Source: an uncultured Methylophilus sp. (GTDB lineage: Bacteria > Pseudomonadota > Gammaproteobacteria > Burkholderiales > Methylophilaceae). From it: a stretch of DNA of 64,000 nt. Every line of letters starts with the position of its first letter. Within the stretch, counting starts at the first letter, position 1. The notes beneath the pieces were generated by a model, which was not told the DNA's origin, searched no databases, and saw only the letters and a program-made list of their open reading frames with translations. The stretch lies in NCBI GenBank assembly GCA_965249075.1, contig CBDFLF010000001.1:693017-757016 (forward strand). The letters run 5' to 3'. Made by a program: the position numbers and the translations under genes. Shown in pieces: positions 4,099-55,007 of the stretch.

Positions 4099-4839
4099 CT
4101 ATTTTTTCAAAATCACACTAAAGCGAAAATCGCGTTGCGCGTAGTTGGGGATGCAACTGGTAAATACTGTTTTTTCAGAGACAGCAAACGCATCAAACCA
4201 GCTTACGTCATAATAAGTATGTGCATAACCCGCGTATTTTTCGTCATACTCGGCTTGCGTCATATTGGCAGAGGCCGCTTCACGACGTAAGGCCTCGCAG
4301 GCTTGCTTAGTGGCTAAGTTAGGCACATCGAGCACCGCCACCGCAACACGCGCTTTGGCGAGCATGGCAGTCAGCACCTGTTTGGCGTAAGGCAAATCAA
4401 AGTAATGAAACACACTGTTGGCAATCACCACGTCATATTGTGGCGTGGTAGCGAGAGCAAGCGCTTCAGCCACAGCAAAATCACCCTCTGGCATGGCGTG
4501 TTGCGCCGCTTCTATCAGGCCCGAGCTGTAATCCAATCCACCGACTTCTAGGTCGCGCACTTGTTGCAATGCGTACAAAAACGCGCCAGCACCGCAACCC
4601 ACTTCATAGACGCTATTGCCATCTTGCAAGTGCAATTTGTCAGCGATTAATTGTGCATAGTCCTGCCAATCTTCTGGTGCAATACGTCCTGCTCCGCTGT
4701 CAAAACCATCCAGCGCAATCAAGGCGGCTAAGTCGAGTGGTGCTTGCGTTTCTCTACGCCGCTTTTCCCACACCCCATGCCAGTGATTGGCTGTTGCAGG
4801 GGCTGTAGAGGGGCTTAAGTGCTGAGTGTGTGTCGTCAT
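4099..4839 (-). CDS. Class I SAM-dependent methyltransferase, probable N-methyltransferase
   Basis: Motif I VYEVGCGAG, motif II GLDYS, post-II YDVVIANSVFHYF. Start overlaps the upstream gene's stop by 4 nt. Confidence 0.85.
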   Translation of the reverse strand: MTTHTQHLSPSTAPATANHWHGVWEKRRRETQAPLDLAALIALDGFDSGAGRIAPEDWQDYAQLIADKLHLQDGNSVYEVGCGAGAFLYALQQVRDLEVGGLDYSSGLIEAAQHAMPEGDFAVAEALALATTPQYDVVIANSVFHYFDLPYAKQVLTAMLAKARVAVAVLDVPNLATKQACEALRREAASANMTQAEYDEKYAGYAHTYYDVSWFDAFAVSEKTVFTSCIPNYAQRDFRFSVILKK

Positions 4840-5285
4840 ACTTTACTTTCTAAGGTTTGCGCCACCGCTTGCAACACCTTGCCTCTTAAATAACTGCTAC
4901 TGACCCCTTCGGTGCGAGGCAACACATGCAAACGTGTTGGGGAAATCGGATTACTGTTGTCATGACCATGCACCAACAAATCAATCTGGTGGGCGTCTAA
5001 AAAGTCTTCTTCTATCAGCCACGGGCAAGGTACGATTTCATCTACATAGCGAATCGCGGACAGTATTTCGTGTCGCTGCGCGTAGTTCAGCTCAGGTTCA
5101 TAGCCTTTTTTAAGTTTAATTTCCTCATCAGTGGTGAGCGCGACGATGACTTTGCCAAGTGCGTGCGCGGCTTTGAGTAAACGGATGTGGCCGTGATGAA
5201 TCAGGGTGGCAGACATATCCACCATGATGCGTTTTTCTTGGTGAGAGTGAGGCTGAGAGCGATTTAGTTGTGAGGGTGCGTGCAT
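4836..5285 (-). CDS. Standalone HxGH-type cytidylyltransferase (TagD/glycerol-3-phosphate cytidylyltransferase-like)
   Basis: DMSATLIHHGHIRLL (HxGH), VIVALTTDE, KKG, RHEILSAIRYVDEIVP and VHGHD match the CTP_transf_like family layout. Confidence 0.88.
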   Translation of the reverse strand: MHAPSQLNRSQPHSHQEKRIMVDMSATLIHHGHIRLLKAAHALGKVIVALTTDEEIKLKKGYEPELNYAQRHEILSAIRYVDEIVPCPWLIEEDFLDAHQIDLLVHGHDNSNPISPTRLHVLPRTEGVSSSYLRGKVLQAVAQTLESKV

Positions 5286-9744: not shown

Positions 9745-10056
9745 TTATTTTTCATGTTTTTTTCTAGATTCTGCCTCTATGGCTCGTAAACTGTAATTTG
9801 ATTCTGTCGGTTCCTTTGATTTTCGATTTAAGAAAGCATAAATCAATAATGCAGGCACTAGGCCAAACAAACCAAATAACAACCATAAAAAACCGCCCAT
9901 CTGACCTGCAGCAAGGACAGGGCCTATGGCGCCACAAGCAGAGGATGCACCAGCACCCTCGTCAACGGTACAGCCCGGAATTAATGCAGCAATCCCAAAA
10001 GATAAAAGCATGATACAAAAGGGCAGTAAAAGTGCAAGGTAATAATATAGTCGCAT
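9745..10056 (-). CDS. Small hypothetical two-TM membrane protein
   Basis: Two hydrophobic segments flank the loop PGCTVDEGAGASSACG; basic/charged C-terminus. GAAGAA purine run upstream. No family recognised. Confidence 0.6.
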   Translation of the reverse strand: MRLYYYLALLLPFCIMLLSFGIAALIPGCTVDEGAGASSACGAIGPVLAAGQMGGFLWLLFGLFGLVPALLIYAFLNRKSKEPTESNYSLRAIEAESRKKHEK

Positions 10057-10113
10057 ATCATTCTTTTCTTCAAAAAACCCATCGTAAATGACGCCTCAAG
10101 TTACGTCAAACAG

Positions 10114-10144
10114 AAAAACCCGCCGAAGCGGGTTTTGTTTTTTT
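10114..10144 (-). terminator. Intrinsic terminator downstream of groEL (potentially bidirectional)
   Basis: AAAAACCCGC-CGAA-GCGGGTTTT with T runs in both orientations. Confidence 0.8.
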
Positions 10145-10161
10145 AAACGCCGGTTAGGACG

Positions 10162-10265
10162 TTTTGCGTTAAGCAGGAAAGTGAGACAAGGCGCCTATCC
10201 GAAGACAATACATTAAGTATGGCAAGGATAGGCAACGCCGTATCACTGAACTGCTTGATGCAAAA
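10162..10265. repeat. ~104 bp long imperfect palindrome (ERIC/MITE-like) in the groEL 3' UTR
   Basis: Arms TTTTGCGTTAAGCAG (10162-10176) and CTGCTTGATGCAAAA (10251-10265) pair at 13/15. Nested stems AGTGA/TCACT, GGCG/CGCC, CCTATCC/GGATAGG, ATAC/GTAT. Confidence 0.6.
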
Positions 10266-10267
10266 AA

Positions 10268-11905
<1,638 letters not shown>

Positions 11906-51144: not shown

Positions 51145-52998
51145 TTACTTTCTTTCAATTTGGGTCACGTCACGCACCGCACCTTTGGCGGCACTGGTGC
51201 TCATGGCAGCATAAGCACGTAAGGCAGGTGAAACACTACGCTCACGGTTAAACGGTTTCCACGCATCTTTGCCTTTGGCTTCCATCGCGCTACGGCGTTG
51301 CGCCATCACTTCGTCAGTCACAGCCAAATGGATGGTGCGATTAGGAATATCGATTTCTATCGTATCGCCTTCCTCTACCAAGCCAATCGCGCCACCTTCT
51401 GCCGCCTCAGGTGAGGCATGGCCAATACTCAAGCCAGATGTCCCTCCTGAAAAACGACCATCGGTCAGCAAAGCACACGCCTTGCCCAAACCTTTTGATT
51501 TTAAGTAAGAGGTTGGGTACAGCATTTCTTGCATGCCTGGGCCACCGCGTGGACCTTCATAACGAATCACCACCACATCGCCTGCTACTACGTTATCGGC
51601 AAGAATTGCGTCAACTGCAGCGTCTTGGCTCTCAAAAATGCGCGCACGGCCTGTAAATTTCAAAATACTATCATCCACGCCTGCGGTTTTGACAATACAT
51701 CCATCGAGCGCAATGTTACCGTAAAGCACGGCTAAGCCGCCGTCTTGTGAGTAAGCATGCGCTTTGTCACGAATACAGCCCTCTGCACGGTCAATATCCA
51801 ATTCAGGCCACAACATGCTTTGTGAGAAAGCTATGGTTGTTCTAATGCCACCCGGTGCGGCTTTAAATAATTTATGCGCCTCTTCATCTTGTGAGGCCGC
51901 AATATCCCACTTAGCCAACGCTTCGCTCATGCTTGGGCTATGCACGGTTGGTACATCCCCATGAATCACGCCCGCGCGATTGAGTTCGCCCAAAATCCCC
52001 ATCACGCCACCTGCGCGGTGTACGTCTTCCATGTGATATTTAGCGGTAGCTGGCGCCACTTTACACACACAAGGCACTTTGCGTGACATGCGGTCAATGT
52101 CTTTCATGGTGAAATCCACACCCGCTTCATGCGCGGCTGCTAACAAATGCAACACCGTGTTGGTAGAGCCACCCATCGCCACATCCAGTGCCATCGCGTT
52201 TTCAAACGCTTTAAATGTCGCAATATTGCGTGGCAACACGCTGTAATCGTCTTGCTCATAATGGCGTTTTGCCAAATCCACAATCAAGCGCCCTGCTTTT
52301 AAAAACAACTCTTTACGCGCGGCGTGTGTGGCTAAGGTAGAACCATTGCCCGGCAAGCTCAACCCAAGCGCCTCAGTTAAACAGTTCATCGAGTTAGCGG
52401 TAAACATGCCAGAGCAAGAGCCACAGGTTGGGCAAGCCTCGCGCTCAATCGCATCAGCTTCTGCATCGCTTACTTTATCATCCGCCGCCGCCACCATCGC
52501 ATCCACCAAATCTAACTTATGCGCATTGCCTTGCCAGTTCACCTTACCCGCTTCCATCGGGCCACCAGACACAAACACCACTGGGATATTCAAGCGCAAG
52601 GCCGCCATCAACATCCCCGGCGTGATTTTGTCGCAGTTAGAAATACACACCAGCGCATCGGCACAGTGCGCATTGACCATATATTCCACGCTATCTGCAA
52701 TCAAATCGCGGCTAGGCAAGCTATACAACATCCCGCCGTGACCCATCGCAATGCCATCATCCACCGCAATCGTGTTGAACTCCTTGGCAACGCCACCCGC
52801 TTTTTCAATCTCACGCGCCACCAATTGACCTAAATCTTTTAAGTGAACGTGACCTGGCACAAATTGCGTAAATGAATTAGAAATCGCAATAATCGGCTTA
52901 GAAAAATCCTCATCTTTCATCCCCGTGGCGCGCCAAAGCGCACGCGCCCCCGCCATATTTCGACCTTGCGTAGTAGTGTGTGAACGGTATTTAGGCAT
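51145..52998 (-). CDS. ilvD: Dihydroxy-acid dehydratase
   Basis: [64 protein letters not shown]. Start placed at ATG 52998. Confidence 0.98.
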
Positions 52999-53105: not shown

Positions 53106-53137
53106 GTTGGGCGCACCTGTTTACGGTGCGCCGTATG
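53106..53137 (+). repeat. REP-like hairpin, copy A
   Basis: GTTG-GGCGCACC-TGTTTAC-GGTGCGCC-GTATG. Confidence 0.7.
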
Positions 53138-53152
53138 AGATTGCGTGAGTTT

Positions 53153-53184
53153 CATGCGGCGGACTGTCAACGAGTCCGCCCTAC
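53153..53184 (-). repeat. GTAG-type REP-like hairpin, copy B
   Basis: Minus strand GTAG-GGCGGACT-CGTTGAC-AGTCCGCC-GCATG. Confidence 0.75.
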
Positions 53185-53193
53185 GCGCGCTGT

Positions 53194-53895
53194 TTAAATT
53201 GCACCCTCAGATAAGTTGGAAAACTTTTCATTAAATAACTCCCATTCAGAGGGGTTGCCTAATTGACGATGATACTCAGTGATAAAGTTTCTGCTAGTTT
53301 TTAAGACCCATAAGCAATAGCTGTAAGAAGCCCATGCTAATTGGAAAAGTTGCTTTTCATTTGCTAAAATCGGTGAGGGTTTAATCGTCTTGATTTCCTC
53401 AAGTTTTTTACTCAACACCACATGCTTGCCTTCTTCACCATACCATTCTGGACAAAAGTGAATGAGCTTATCTCTAACATCAATAAGCGTTTTCGTATGT
53501 GGCCACCAATACTCTTCTTTATTGAGTTTCTGACTTTTTATGATTTCATAAATTACTGAGTATTTATCTAGAGTAGGTTTCCGCTCAATTTTTTCAACAA
53601 TACAATTAGCGTAATCTTTACTTTTTCCATGACTAGTCAATATTTGCCCTTCAAAGGTCAATTCATTGTAATAAGCCTCTAATGCCGCAACACTCATCAT
53701 GGTTACCGCCATCGCAAGATGGAGAATCTCATCAAAATATTCTCCCAATTCTTTATTTTCATTCTCAAGCTCTAGATTTTTGAGTTGTGTTGCAAAACGG
53801 CATGCAGCCATCATATAGTGCATCGAGAATTGATGTCTGAGATTAAGTTCCATACTTATATCCAGTGCGGGAAGAGTTAAACGTATTGCGTTCAT
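53194..53895 (-). CDS. AT-rich hypothetical protein with HEPN-like motifs
   Basis: SVAALEAYYNE helix and VRDKLIH (R-X4-H). GAAGGA RBS. Visibly AT-rich relative to ilvD and lgt. Confidence 0.75.
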   Translation of the reverse strand: MNAIRLTLPALDISMELNLRHQFSMHYMMAACRFATQLKNLELENENKELGEYFDEILHLAMAVTMMSVAALEAYYNELTFEGQILTSHGKSKDYANCIVEKIERKPTLDKYSVIYEIIKSQKLNKEEYWWPHTKTLIDVRDKLIHFCPEWYGEEGKHVVLSKKLEEIKTIKPSPILANEKQLFQLAWASYSYCLWVLKTSRNFITEYHRQLGNPSEWELFNEKFSNLSEGAI

Positions 53896-53989
53896 ATCAT
53901 TTCCTTCAAATTATGAGGTGAAGGAAGCACAATAGCTTAAAAATTGTGCGTTGTATTTTGTGATTTTTTCTATTTGAAATCCAAGCTCG

Positions 53990-54024
53990 GTAGCTTGGGG
54001 GACTCGTTTACAGTCCGCCGCATG
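53990..54024 (+). repeat. REP-like hairpin, copy C (degenerate left arm)
   Basis: GTAG-CTTG-GGGGACT-CGTTTAC-AGTCCGCC-GCATG. 54000-54024 is the reverse complement of 53153-53177 at 24/25. Confidence 0.7.
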
Positions 54025-54209
54025 TTATTGATTAACATCACTCTTCACTTTTTGTAGCTCAACATTTTATTTAATAATTCAAACACTAAGACATAACAAA
54101 CTTTTAAAATTATTCTAATCACACAAACTTCACCCCCTTATGTTTAAATTGGGCGTTGCCAGTATAATCACCACCTACCTGCAATTTAAGATAAAAGATT
54201 GAGATTGTT

Positions 54210-55007
54210 ATGCTTTTGACCCACCCACAATTTAACCCGATTGCTTTGCAAATTACTGATGGTTTTGGTGTGCATTGGTATGGGTTAATGTATTTGACGG
54301 CGTTTATGGGGTTTTTGTGGTTTGGGCGTTTGCAGTTAAAGCAAAAGCCTTGGTTTGCTTGGAACTTGCAGATGTTGGACGATGCGATGTTTTACGGGGC
54401 CTTGGGCGTGGTGTTGGGCGGGCGCTTGGGGTATGTGTTGTTTTATCAGCCTGTTTATTTTTTAAGCCACCCCGCTGAGATTTTTGCAGTGTGGCAAGGT
54501 GGAATGAGTTTTCATGGGGGATTTTTAGGGGTGTTGGTGGCGATGGCGTTGTTTACGCGCAAATACCCTCAGCCGTGGTTAAAAGTAATGGATTTTGTTG
54601 CGCCTTTGGTGCCGTTTGGCTTGGGGGCGGGGCGCATGGGCAATTTTATTAATGGTGAGCTTTGGGGCAGACCGACCAATGCGGATTGGGGCATGATTTT
54701 TCCACAAGTGGATGCGGTGCCGCGCTACCCTTCGCAGTTGTTTCAGTTTGCGCTAGAAGGCGTGGCTTTGTTTGCTTTGCTTTGGTGGTTTTCTAAAAAG
54801 CAACGCCCTGTGGGAGCGATTTCTGCACTGTTTTTAATGGGCTATGGTAGCTTTAGATTTTTGGCTGAATTTACCCGCCAACCCGATGACTTTTTGGGCT
54901 TGCTCTCGTTTGGCTTGAGCATGGGACAATGGTTGAGTTTGCCGATGGTGTTGATAGGGATTTGGATGATGTGGGCGACGTATCAAGGGCGTTTTGAAAA
55001 AGCCTAG
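54210..55007 (+). CDS. lgt: Prolipoprotein diacylglyceryl transferase
   Basis: [51 protein letters not shown]. Confidence 0.98.

What the first reader, a model, noticed from the sequence alone, without database searches (positions are those of the whole stretch)
53106..54024. Foreign gene bracketed by REP hairpins showing compensatory base changes: possible REP/RAYT-mediated cargo capture
Seen: three copies of one 32-nt unit. A: GTTG-GGCGCACC-TGTTTAC-GGTGCGCC-GTATG. B: GTAG-GGCGGACT-CGTTGAC-AGTCCGCC-GCATG. C: GTAG-cttg-GGGGACT-CGTTTAC-AGTCCGCC-GCATG. A and B differ by two fully compensatory stem changes (C-G to G-C, C-G to T-A). B and C are inverted (24/25 over 25 bp) with their GTAG feet facing the AT-rich gene between them. 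A+B form a REPIN-like doublet. Established: GTAG-footed palindromes are substrates of RAYT (TnpA-REP) HUH nucleases, and REPs flank RAYT genes. Inference: the REP pair delimits a mobilisable or recombination-inserted cassette carrying a putative defence gene instead of the transposase, making the ilvD-lgt gap a variable slot.
Basis: partly seen in the sequence, partly recalled or inferred. Interest (0 to 1): 0.68.

Follow-up and report, generated by a model that had tools for sequence, protein, structure and literature searches.

The report
REP hairpins in a variable gene slot
Three copies of a genuine bacterial repeat (REP hairpins) sit in a gap between two housekeeping genes that holds different small accessory or defence genes in closely related strains, but the repeats look like punctuation or recombination scars, not the ends of a jumping gene cassette.

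Summary
Three GTAG-type REP hairpins lie at 53106-53137 (+), 53153-53184 (-) and 53990-54024 (+). They are the only such elements in the 64 kb. They bracket an AT-rich 233-aa gene (53194-53895, -) between ilvD and lgt.

The family is real. 27 metagenome loci and Methylophilus sp. DW102 carry the same REP, with fully compensatory stem variants. In relatives the REPs flank a bona fide RAYT (E. coli TnpA-REP E=2e-49).

The ilvD-lgt gap is a variable slot. Relatives 91-95% identical in the flanks carry an HpaII restriction-modification pair, or a pilin-like gene plus a 196-aa orphan, or 119 nt, or one REP. A more distant relative has a 63-bp gap.

RAYT-mediated cargo capture is not supported:
- B and C have their feet facing inward, the opposite of every RAYT-flanking pair.
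- A (GTTG) and C (foot displaced by 3 nt, one stem mismatch) are degenerate.
- Allele boundaries lie at about 53176-53196 and at 54092/54093, not at the REP ends.
- Cargo homologues elsewhere have no REPs.
- REP C plus 42 nt is copied from another locus.

Best reading: a defence/accessory islet in which REPs are co-resident punctuation and probable recombination junctions. The cargo is an unclassified protein with an invariant Rx4H (HEPN-like) motif.

The parts
51145..52998 (-). ilvD (dihydroxy-acid dehydratase), the conserved left flank of the slot. The likely start is the ATG at 52998 (MPKYRS...).
   Evidence: ORF. Synteny and Pfam ILVD_EDD in L040 and L044. 91% nt identity to L044 and L012 up to 53062 and 53176 respectively.
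53106..53137 (+). REP A: degenerate foot GTTG, 8-bp stem GGCGCACC/GGTGCGCC, loop TGTTTAC, tail GTATG.
   Evidence: Orthologous copy in L012. A single REP occupies this position in the X2 allele.
53138..53152 (.). 15-nt tail-to-tail spacer of the A/B doublet (REPIN-like, feet outward).
   Evidence: The doublet recurs at other loci: L019 764-831 and an X1 contig of 1656 nt.
53153..53196 (-). REP B unit: the canonical copy GTAG GGCGGACT CGTTGAC AGTCCGCC GCATG (53153-53184) plus a 12-nt 5' extension (53185-53196) that overlaps the cargo stop codon.
   Evidence: A 45-nt block, 93% identical, is the only slot sequence shared with allele L044. Depth spike and many different flanks in metagenomes.
53194..53895 (-). 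Cargo gene, 233 aa, AT-rich. It belongs to an unclassified family with invariant R141 and near-invariant H146 (Rx4H, HEPN-like).
53896..53965 (-). Cargo 5' region (putative promoter/5'UTR) that travels with the gene. It ends with the conserved block CAAAATACAACGCAC.
   Evidence: Alignment of four contexts. blastn limits 53960-53971.
53981..53998 (.). Small palindrome CCAAGCT-cggt-AGCTTGG overlapping the foot of REP C, at the junction between cargo and REP C.
   Evidence: Sequence. Predicted 7-bp hairpin (third sequence).
53983..54024 (+). REP C: family-type 5' extension AAGCTCG, GTAG 53990-93, 3-nt insert CTT, stem GGGGGACT/AGTCCGCC with one mismatch, loop CGTTTAC, tail GCATG.
54025..54066 (+). 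42-nt tail that, together with REP C, is also found at a different locus in related genomes. It is a mosaic piece.
   Evidence: an X1 contig of 2158 nt and an X5 contig of 769 nt match 54000/4-54066 and have different flanks on both sides.
54067..54092 (.). 26 nt found only in this allele. It is the end of the variable segment.
54093..54209 (+). Conserved lgt upstream region. Every allele resumes homology at 54093.
   Evidence: L012 2603 = 54093 and L044 7884 = 54093. Joints in X1 and X4.
54210..55007 (+). lgt (prolipoprotein diacylglyceryl transferase), the conserved right flank.

Best explanation
The window comes from a Methylophilaceae bacterium. The three hairpins are members of a low-to-moderate copy GTAG-footed REP family. 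The cognate enzyme of that family is an E. coli-type (group 2-like) RAYT.

The space between the ilvD 5' region and the lgt promoter is a strain-variable islet. Unrelated small modules have been inserted or exchanged there: an HEPN-like gene in this genome, and in sister lineages an HpaII-type R-M pair, a pilin-like gene plus a 196-aa orphan, or almost nothing.

The alleles probably spread by homologous recombination through the conserved ilvD and lgt flanks. The original insertions were probably made by illegitimate or short-homology recombination. REPs are the recurrent punctuation of this islet, in alternating, BIME-like orientation. They most likely serve as portable short homologies or hairpin break points where junctions form. 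At the RNA level they may act as 3' hairpins that insulate ilvD from read-through.

The cargo was not transposed by a RAYT as a REP-bounded unit.

Shown: REP family membership, RAYT association in relatives, slot variability, the mosaic structure and the junction coordinates. Inferred: the recombination mechanism and any role of the REPs in it. The cargo as an HEPN-type RNase is a hypothesis.
For: REP family and covariation.

RAYT flanked by the same REPs: L023, L034 and L018, Methylophilus sp. DW102.

Dispersed multicopy repeat: REP B core depth is 118 (X1), 820 (X2) and 2145 (X5), against 7.2 single-copy depth in X1. There are 32-37-nt unitigs and more than 10 different flanks.

Slot variability:
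- L012 has an R-M pair.
- L044 has a pilin-like gene plus a 196-aa gene.
- X4 has 119 nt.
- X2 has a single REP.
- L040 has a 63-bp gap with identical synteny.

Foreign, mobile cargo: low GC. Homologues at 57-82% identity sit in a different locus among PemK/DUF4926/zeta-like genes.

Junctions at or in REPs:
- L012 breaks inside the B stem at 53176.
- The cargo stop codon abuts the B unit.
- Homology to another locus starts inside C.
- In L016 the insertion ends 2 nt from a REP foot.

All 3 REPs of the 64 kb lie in this 1.2-kb gap.
Against: No direct evidence shows that REPs promoted any of the joins. The common right boundary, 54093, may simply mark where selection on the lgt promoter begins. 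With only a few alleles, breakpoints near REPs could be chance, because REPs fill much of the short non-coding space.

In Pseudomonas, recently acquired DNA is typically REP-poor (PMC3390384), so REP enrichment here is unusual and unexplained.

The whole source genome could not be searched, so its REP count and RAYT status are unknown. An X1 contig at similar depth carries a diverged RAYT-like segment, but the sample holds several strains.

Copy-number estimates come from assembler word depth and are rough.
Confidence: 0.58

Rival explanations
1. RAYT/REP-mediated cargo capture. The B/C pair forms the ends of a unit in which the HEPN-like gene replaces the transposase. A RAYT acting in trans cuts at the GTAG feet and mobilises or inserts the cassette as single-stranded DNA.
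For: B and C are inverted and nearly identical. They bracket the transferred unit tightly, with 0-10 nt on the left and about 20-25 nt on the right. A second allele (L044) has another gene in the same REP(-)...REP(+) frame. Cognate RAYTs exist in the family. A conserved CT lies 3 nt 5' of GTAG in the family extension AGCTCGC-GTAG. CT is the RAYT cleavage dinucleotide (PMC8266576).
Against: The polarity is the reverse of all REPtrons seen: feet inward here, outward there.

C has its foot displaced by 3 nt and a stem mismatch, and A has GTTG. GTAG mutations abolish activity in the E. coli-type system (PMC8266576).

There is no CT within 20 nt 5' of B's foot.

Allele boundaries are not at the REP pair. 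The R-M allele lacks a right REP and truncates B inside the stem. Cargo homologues in 5 other contexts have no REPs.

REP C plus 42 nt derives from another locus by ordinary recombination. The literature reports no evidence that REPtrons move (PMC8266576).
Confidence: 0.07
2. Bystander REPs. The gap is a permissive, unconstrained intergenic region. Cargo arrived by unrelated means. REPs or REPINs colonised the free non-coding DNA independently, or were imported as passengers with DNA from REP-bearing relatives. They had no part in cargo insertion.
For: REPs elsewhere sit preferentially just 3' of genes and in non-essential spacers (PMC3733652). A single-REP allele without cargo exists (X2), so a REP predates the cargo. 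REP C came in with 42 nt of foreign flank. The A and C copies are decayed, which suggests age rather than recent activity. A distant relative has neither REP nor cargo.
Against: All three REPs of 64 kb are in this one gap, and both REPs of the 9.8-kb L044 locus lie in the same gap. Several independent junctions fall within or a few nt from REPs. A 45-nt REP B unit is the only block shared between two otherwise unrelated alleles. That pattern is what crossing-over inside the REP would leave.
Confidence: 0.28
3. The hairpins are primarily functional RNA or DNA signals, such as transcription terminators, mRNA stabilisers or uptake sequences. They are selected at this site rather than being repeat elements.
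For: A/B lies between the cargo 3' end and the co-directional ilvD, and forms two stable hairpins.
Against: No T-run follows any copy. The conserved GTAG foot, the dispersed copies with unrelated flanks, and the flanking of RAYT genes identify them as REPs. A secondary insulating role is not excluded.
Confidence: 0.05

Closest known systems
GTAG-type REP / BIME elements with their RAYT (TnpA-REP; E. coli REPtron, PDB 4ER8; NCBIfam NF047646)
   Same: A 32-nt unit with a 5' GTAG foot, a GC-rich 8-bp stem and compensatory stem variants. It is extragenic, arranged in alternating orientation, and occurs as a doublet with outward feet. Relatives carry a RAYT 175 aa long (E=2e-49 to 4ER8, 202 bits to NF047646) flanked by inverted copies.
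   Different: Copy number appears low, roughly 3-20 per genome equivalent from depth ratios, not hundreds. The stem is perfect, without the bulge of E. coli REPs. In this window the copies are confined to one hypervariable gap, and two of the three have defective feet.
REPINs (Bertels and Rainey 2011, PMC3116915)
   Same: A/B is two inverted REPs with a short spacer, in the same polarity as the REPs around the RAYT. The doublet recurs at other loci. Decayed RAYTs between inverted REPs (L013, L032) look like intermediates.
   Different: The spacer is only 15 nt. The two arms carry different stem variants, so they cannot form one long hairpin. The cargo lies outside the doublet, not inside it.
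Defence or accessory hotspots ('islets') between conserved core genes, including Neisseria minimal mobile elements flanked by small repeats (from my own knowledge)
   Same: Conserved flanking core genes. Alternative unrelated cargos, including an R-M system. Near-empty alleles. No integrase or transposase in the slot. Spread by flank homology is plausible.
   Different: The slot is very small (0.06-2.3 kb) with single-gene modules. REP hairpins recur at the module boundaries.
Integron gene cassettes with attC hairpins
   Same: Single promoter-proximal genes separated by imperfect palindromes that fold in single-stranded DNA. A dedicated single-strand-specific enzyme exists for the hairpins.
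   Different: There is no integrase, attI or array. The REPs are not consistently 3' of each gene and their orientation alternates. The cargo occurs elsewhere without REPs. This is resemblance only and is not supported as a mechanism.
HEPN-domain toxins and RNases (RiboL-PSP-HEPN PF18735; HEPN-MNT toxins such as 7BXO, 7AE6, 5YEP)
   Same: An invariant Rx4H motif (R141, H146), an all-alpha fold, and neighbours in toxin-antitoxin-rich islands. There are weak Pfam and Foldseek hits to HEPN proteins.
   Different: No hit reaches significance: Pfam 15 bits against a cutoff of 28, Foldseek E>=0.8. There is no MNT partner or antitoxin gene. PADLOC finds nothing. The family (1888 representative clusters) has no Pfam model.

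Membership tests
REP (GTAG-type repetitive extragenic palindrome) | Short GC-rich palindrome able to form a stem-loop | tested here: met
   8-bp stems, 7-nt loop. DNA folding gives -10.4 (A) and -8.9 (B) kcal/mol, z -4.2 and -3.3. C has one stem mismatch.
REP (GTAG-type repetitive extragenic palindrome) | Conserved GTAG tetranucleotide immediately 5' of the palindrome | tested here: met
   16 of 20 distinct family copies have GTAG abutting the stem. In the window B has GTAG, A has GTTG, and C has GTAG displaced by 3 nt.
REP (GTAG-type repetitive extragenic palindrome) | Many dispersed extragenic copies in a genome | tested here: inconclusive
   The repeat is dispersed in related genomes and metagenomes: 27 loci, depth spikes and more than 10 distinct flanks. 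Depth ratios suggest only about 3-20 copies per genome. The source genome beyond 64 kb could not be searched.
REP (GTAG-type repetitive extragenic palindrome) | Cognate RAYT gene flanked by inverted copies of the same REP | tested here: met
   L023 (REP 4582-4609 +, RAYT 4633-5160, REP 5165-5192 -). Methylophilus sp. DW102 L045 (9946-9973 +, RAYT 10001-10528, 10548-10575 -).. No RAYT in the window itself (tblastn). For the source genome this could not be tested.
REP (GTAG-type repetitive extragenic palindrome) | Stem maintained by compensatory substitutions among copies | tested here: met
   Pairs 9-23 (CG:11, GC:9) and 12-20 (UA:13, CG:7) with no broken cell. 0/500 shuffles reach the observed value.
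REPIN (REP doublet as replicative unit) | Two inverted REPs with a short spacer, recurring as a unit at several loci | tested here: inconclusive
   The A/B layout fits (15-nt spacer, feet outward). Doublet-like matches occur in L019 (half decayed) and in an X1 contig. There are too few copies to show replication as a unit. The arms differ at two stem pairs.
RAYT-mobilised REP-bounded cassette (REPtron-like unit with cargo) | Flanking REPs in the same polarity as around RAYT genes (GTAG feet outward) | tested here: not met
   B and C have their feet inward. L023, L045 and L013 have their feet outward.
RAYT-mobilised REP-bounded cassette (REPtron-like unit with cargo) | Empty or alternative alleles whose joints coincide with the REP ends | tested here: not met
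   Joints lie at 53176 (inside the B stem), 53182, 53196 and always 54092/54093, which is 68 nt past C.
RAYT-mobilised REP-bounded cassette (REPtron-like unit with cargo) | The same gene with the same REP ends at other loci | tested here: not met
   Homologues in L001-L007, L042 and L043 have no REP within <=7 mismatches.
RAYT-mobilised REP-bounded cassette (REPtron-like unit with cargo) | Cleavage and strand transfer by the RAYT at the junctions | not testable with these tools
   This needs biochemistry, for example the CST assay of PMC8266576.
Variable islet / defence hotspot between core genes | Conserved flanking genes with different cargo in close relatives, and an empty state | tested here: met
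   HEPN-like gene (window). HpaII R-M (L012). Pilin-like gene plus 196-aa gene (L044). 119 nt (X4). One REP (X2). 63 bp (L040)..
HEPN domain | Rx4-6H catalytic motif conserved across the family | tested here: met
   R141 is invariant and H146 is >=90% conserved in 49 diverse members. The consensus is LRNALVHF.
HEPN domain | Significant sequence or structure match to a known HEPN family | tested here: not met
   PF18735 at E=0.022, 15 bits against a cutoff of 28.4. 2 of 49 members hit it weakly. The AF2 model has pLDDT 94.9, yet the best PDB Foldseek E-value is 0.8. HEPN toxins appear only among weak hits, with TM 0.36-0.52.

The most novel reading that the evidence does not exclude
REP hairpins, together with their RAYT, could work as an integron-like recombination system. 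In that reading, single-gene defence or accessory modules are joined and exchanged at REP feet in a fixed chromosomal slot, giving a 'REP-punctuated cassette array'. The recurrent REP(-)-gene-REP(+) frame holds different genes in two alleles, and several junctions fall at REPs. These would be its footprints.
Probability: 0.07. Interest if true: 0.85.

Novelty: new member of a known kind. Interest (0 to 1): 0.42.

Why it matters
This work documents a REP family and its RAYT in Methylophilaceae. As far as the two REP surveys I checked go (PMC3733652, PMC2817692: no 'Methylo' entries), this family has not been described there.

It also shows a very compact hypervariable islet between ilvD and lgt that carries defence-type cargo. 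REPs are usually treated as markers of old, stable DNA, and recently acquired genes usually fall in REP deserts (PMC3390384). Here the only REPs in 64 kb cluster around foreign genes, and several allele junctions touch them.

If that association holds across many genomes, it would point to REPs as recombination sites that help small accessory genes enter bacterial chromosomes without any integrase. Separately, the cargo belongs to a sizeable unannotated protein family. That family has a confident predicted fold, no structural neighbour and an HEPN-like motif, which makes it a reasonable candidate for functional tests.

Tried and rejected
1. My only genome-contig scan used a faulty pattern (GGNAC...). 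It matches copy C but not A or B. It returned 4 chance-level hits in unrelated phyla. It shows only that the source genome is not in that collection.

2. Exact look-ups of the window's own cargo and lgt proteins found nothing.

3. PADLOC, NCBIfam and PHROGs give nothing useful for the cargo. The PDB sequence profile search gives nothing.

4. The AF2 model from a 5-sequence alignment was poor (pLDDT 57.6). I replaced it with a 49-sequence model. Foldseek against PDB and BFVD found no significant match.

5. A hairpin upstream of the L006 homologue (GAGGACTGTTAAAAGTCCGCC) looked like a REP remnant travelling with the gene. It does not align with REP C and fails the relaxed REP search, so I dropped it.

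6. I looked for target-site duplications and direct repeats at the cargo ends. I found only a weak AT-rich similarity (CTGTTTAAAT / CTATTTGAAAT). The similarity of 53190-53205 to a REP half (D1) lies in conserved coding sequence and is chance.

7. I first read the X4 and X1 joints as clean empty sites. A re-run showed 119 nt of unknown sequence in X4. The X1 contig is the L044-type allele.

8. The 176-aa protein in L016 is not related to the cargo family (hhalign probability 5%).
Full report
**What is in the sequence.**

The interval lies between two divergent core genes: ilvD (51145-52998, minus) and lgt (54210-55007, plus). It contains three copies of one 32-nt unit.
- A (53106-53137, +): GTTG GGCGCACC TGTTTAC GGTGCGCC GTATG.
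- B (53153-53184, read on the minus strand): GTAG GGCGGACT CGTTGAC AGTCCGCC GCATG.
- C (53990-54024, +): GTAG ctt GGGGGACT CGTTTAC AGTCCGCC GCATG.

A degenerate pattern finds exactly these three sites in 64 kb, against 0.02 expected. B and C form a 28-nt inverted repeat, 93% complementary. A and B fold as 8-bp hairpins. No other GTAG-footed hairpin occurs in the window.

Between B and C lies a 233-aa ORF on the minus strand (53194-53895). Its GC content is 35-37%, against about 50% in the flanks.

**The hairpins are true REPs.**

lgt homologues are annotated as Methylophilus, Methylotenera or Methylophilaceae, so the source is a Methylophilaceae bacterium.

A corrected pattern scan of metagenome contigs returned 27 loci. 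A relaxed search gave the family consensus (a)gctcgc GTAG GGCG[C/G]AC[T/C] CGTTTAC [A/G]GT[G/C]CGCC G[C/T]ATG. There are three stem variants, each perfectly complementary.

On 20 distinct copies, 98.1% of stem cells pair. Two pairs covary (CG:11/GC:9 and UA:13/CG:7) with no broken cell, and no shuffle in 500 reaches the observed value. The scan pattern left these positions free to mismatch.

Contigs from four metagenomes were laid on the locus. The REP B core reaches depths of 118, 820 and 2145, where unique flanks have 7.2 or zero. There are 32-37-nt unitigs and many different flanking sequences. This marks a dispersed repeat. The depth ratios suggest only some 3-20 copies per genome equivalent.

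**A cognate RAYT exists.**

In L023, two inverted REPs with their feet outward enclose a 175-aa ORF. That ORF matches E. coli TnpA-REP (4ER8) at E=2e-49 and NCBIfam REP_Tyr_transpos at 202 bits against a cutoff of 80.

Further intact copies lie in L034 and L018. Decayed copies lie in L013/L039, L032 and L024.

A 77%-identical RAYT in the complete genome of Methylophilus sp. DW102 is flanked by B-type REPs, again with feet outward. No RAYT lies in the 64-kb window. The probable source sample, X1, holds a diverged RAYT-like contig at similar depth. It cannot be assigned to this strain.

**The gap is a variable slot.**

A relative with 77% lgt identity has the same synteny, a 63-bp ilvD-lgt gap and no REP (L040). 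Lineages 91-95% identical in the flanks show these alleles:
- L012: A, a B truncated inside its stem, then an HpaII endonuclease and a C5 methyltransferase, with no right-hand REP.
- L044: a pilin-like gene, a REP B unit, a 196-aa orphan gene, then a canonical REP(+).
- X4: A, B and 119 unrelated nucleotides.
- X2: a single REP.

Every allele resumes homology with the window at 54093. That point is 68 nt beyond REP C.

**The window allele is a mosaic.**

- ilvD upstream, A and B are shared with L012 and X4.
- The gene and about 70 nt upstream of it (53194 to about 53965) are shared, at 77-87% nt identity, with homologues that sit elsewhere. Those homologues lie upstream of a flavin reductase gene, among PemK, DUF4926, DUF6883 and zeta-like genes. 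They have no REPs nearby.
- REP C plus 42 nt occurs at a different locus in X1 and X5, where it has a canonical foot.
- 54067-54092 is unique to this allele.

**Why RAYT-mediated capture is unlikely.**

- In every REPtron seen, the feet point outward. B and C point inward, so the gene lies outside the REPIN-like A/B doublet and not in the place of the transposase.
- A has GTTG. C has a displaced foot and a stem mismatch. In the E. coli-type system GTAG mutations are not tolerated. RAYTs cut at CT dinucleotides outside the hairpin (PMC8266576), and no CT lies within 20 nt 5' of B's foot.
- Allele junctions fall at 53176 (inside the stem), 53182, 53196 and 54092/54093, not at the REP pair.
- The gene travels without REPs elsewhere.

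**What the REPs may still be doing.**

All three REPs of the window, and both REPs of L044, lie in this one gap. A 45-nt REP B unit is the only block shared by the window and L044 alleles. Several junctions lie in or next to REPs.

Downstream of groEL, a relative (L016) carries an insertion of about 820 nt that is absent from the window. It holds a small ORF, a REP, and a doublet of a second GTAG-REP family. It ends 2 nt from a REP foot.

This pattern fits REPs as short portable homologies or hairpin break points. It is inference, and the bystander explanation keeps substantial weight. The pattern runs against the Pseudomonas rule that new DNA is REP-poor (PMC3390384).

**The cargo protein.**

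The 233-aa protein has few close relatives. A profile search finds 1888 representative clusters. R141 is invariant and H146 nearly so (Rx4H). No Pfam, NCBIfam or PADLOC family applies.

A 49-sequence AlphaFold model is confident (pLDDT 94.9) and all-alpha. It has no significant PDB or viral match. HEPN toxins and MtlR appear only among weak hits. I regard the HEPN-like RNase reading as about an even bet.

**Verdict.**

The REP identity, the RAYT link in relatives and the variable slot are supported. Cassette mobilisation by RAYT is not supported. This is a new member of known kinds (a REP/RAYT family and a defence islet), with an unusual co-localisation of REPs and foreign genes that deserves a pangenome test.

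Noticed in passing
L013 6647-7102, L039 1198-1653, L032 7875-8145, L024 about 1200-1360: RAYT genes decayed in place between their inverted REPs. L013 and L039 have an internal deletion leaving a 64-aa ORF. L032 has a 47-aa stump. They look like intermediates between a REPtron and a REPIN-like doublet.
   Followed up: partly
L016 about 320-1141 (corresponds to window about 10180-10266, downstream of groEL): A relative carries an insertion of about 820 nt that is absent from the window. It holds a 176-aa ORF with an LRDMLEH (Rx4H-like) motif, one REP of this family, and a doublet of a second GTAG-REP family (GTAGGGTGGGCAAACTCGGCCCACGCG...). The right junction lies 2 nt from the CTAC foot. The ORF is not related to the cargo family (hhalign probability 5%).
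   Followed up: partly
window 53981-53998: A 7-bp palindrome, CCAAGCT-cggt-AGCTTGG, overlaps the GTAG foot of REP C and contains the 3-nt 'insert'. It may be a scar of the join between cargo and REP C, or it may be chance.
   Followed up: no
window 53194-53895 (protein family): The cargo belongs to a family of about 1900 representative clusters of 200-240-aa proteins. The family has no Pfam model. It has a very confident AF2 fold (pLDDT 94.9) and no significant structural neighbour in PDB or BFVD.
   Followed up: partly
L023 3869-4570: An HNH endonuclease gene (233 aa) ends 12 nt before the left REP of the REPtron.
   Followed up: no
L001/L002 (glnS to flavin reductase interval) and L006: In other Methylophilaceae-like contigs the cargo homologue sits in a run of small toxin-antitoxin-type genes (DUF6883, DUF4926, PemK, a zeta/AAA_33-like gene) between glnS and a flavin reductase gene. 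This is a second variable island.
   Followed up: no
L044 6503-6973 and 7118-7708: The same ilvD-lgt slot in a sister strain holds a type IV pilin-like gene (N_methyl motif) and an AT-rich 196-aa orphan with no family match.
   Followed up: partly
L045 8528-9754: In Methylophilus sp. DW102 an IS256-type transposase gene (Transposase_mut) lies about 190 nt upstream of the REPtron, next to an IstB fragment. The RAYT neighbourhood there is rich in IS elements.
   Followed up: no
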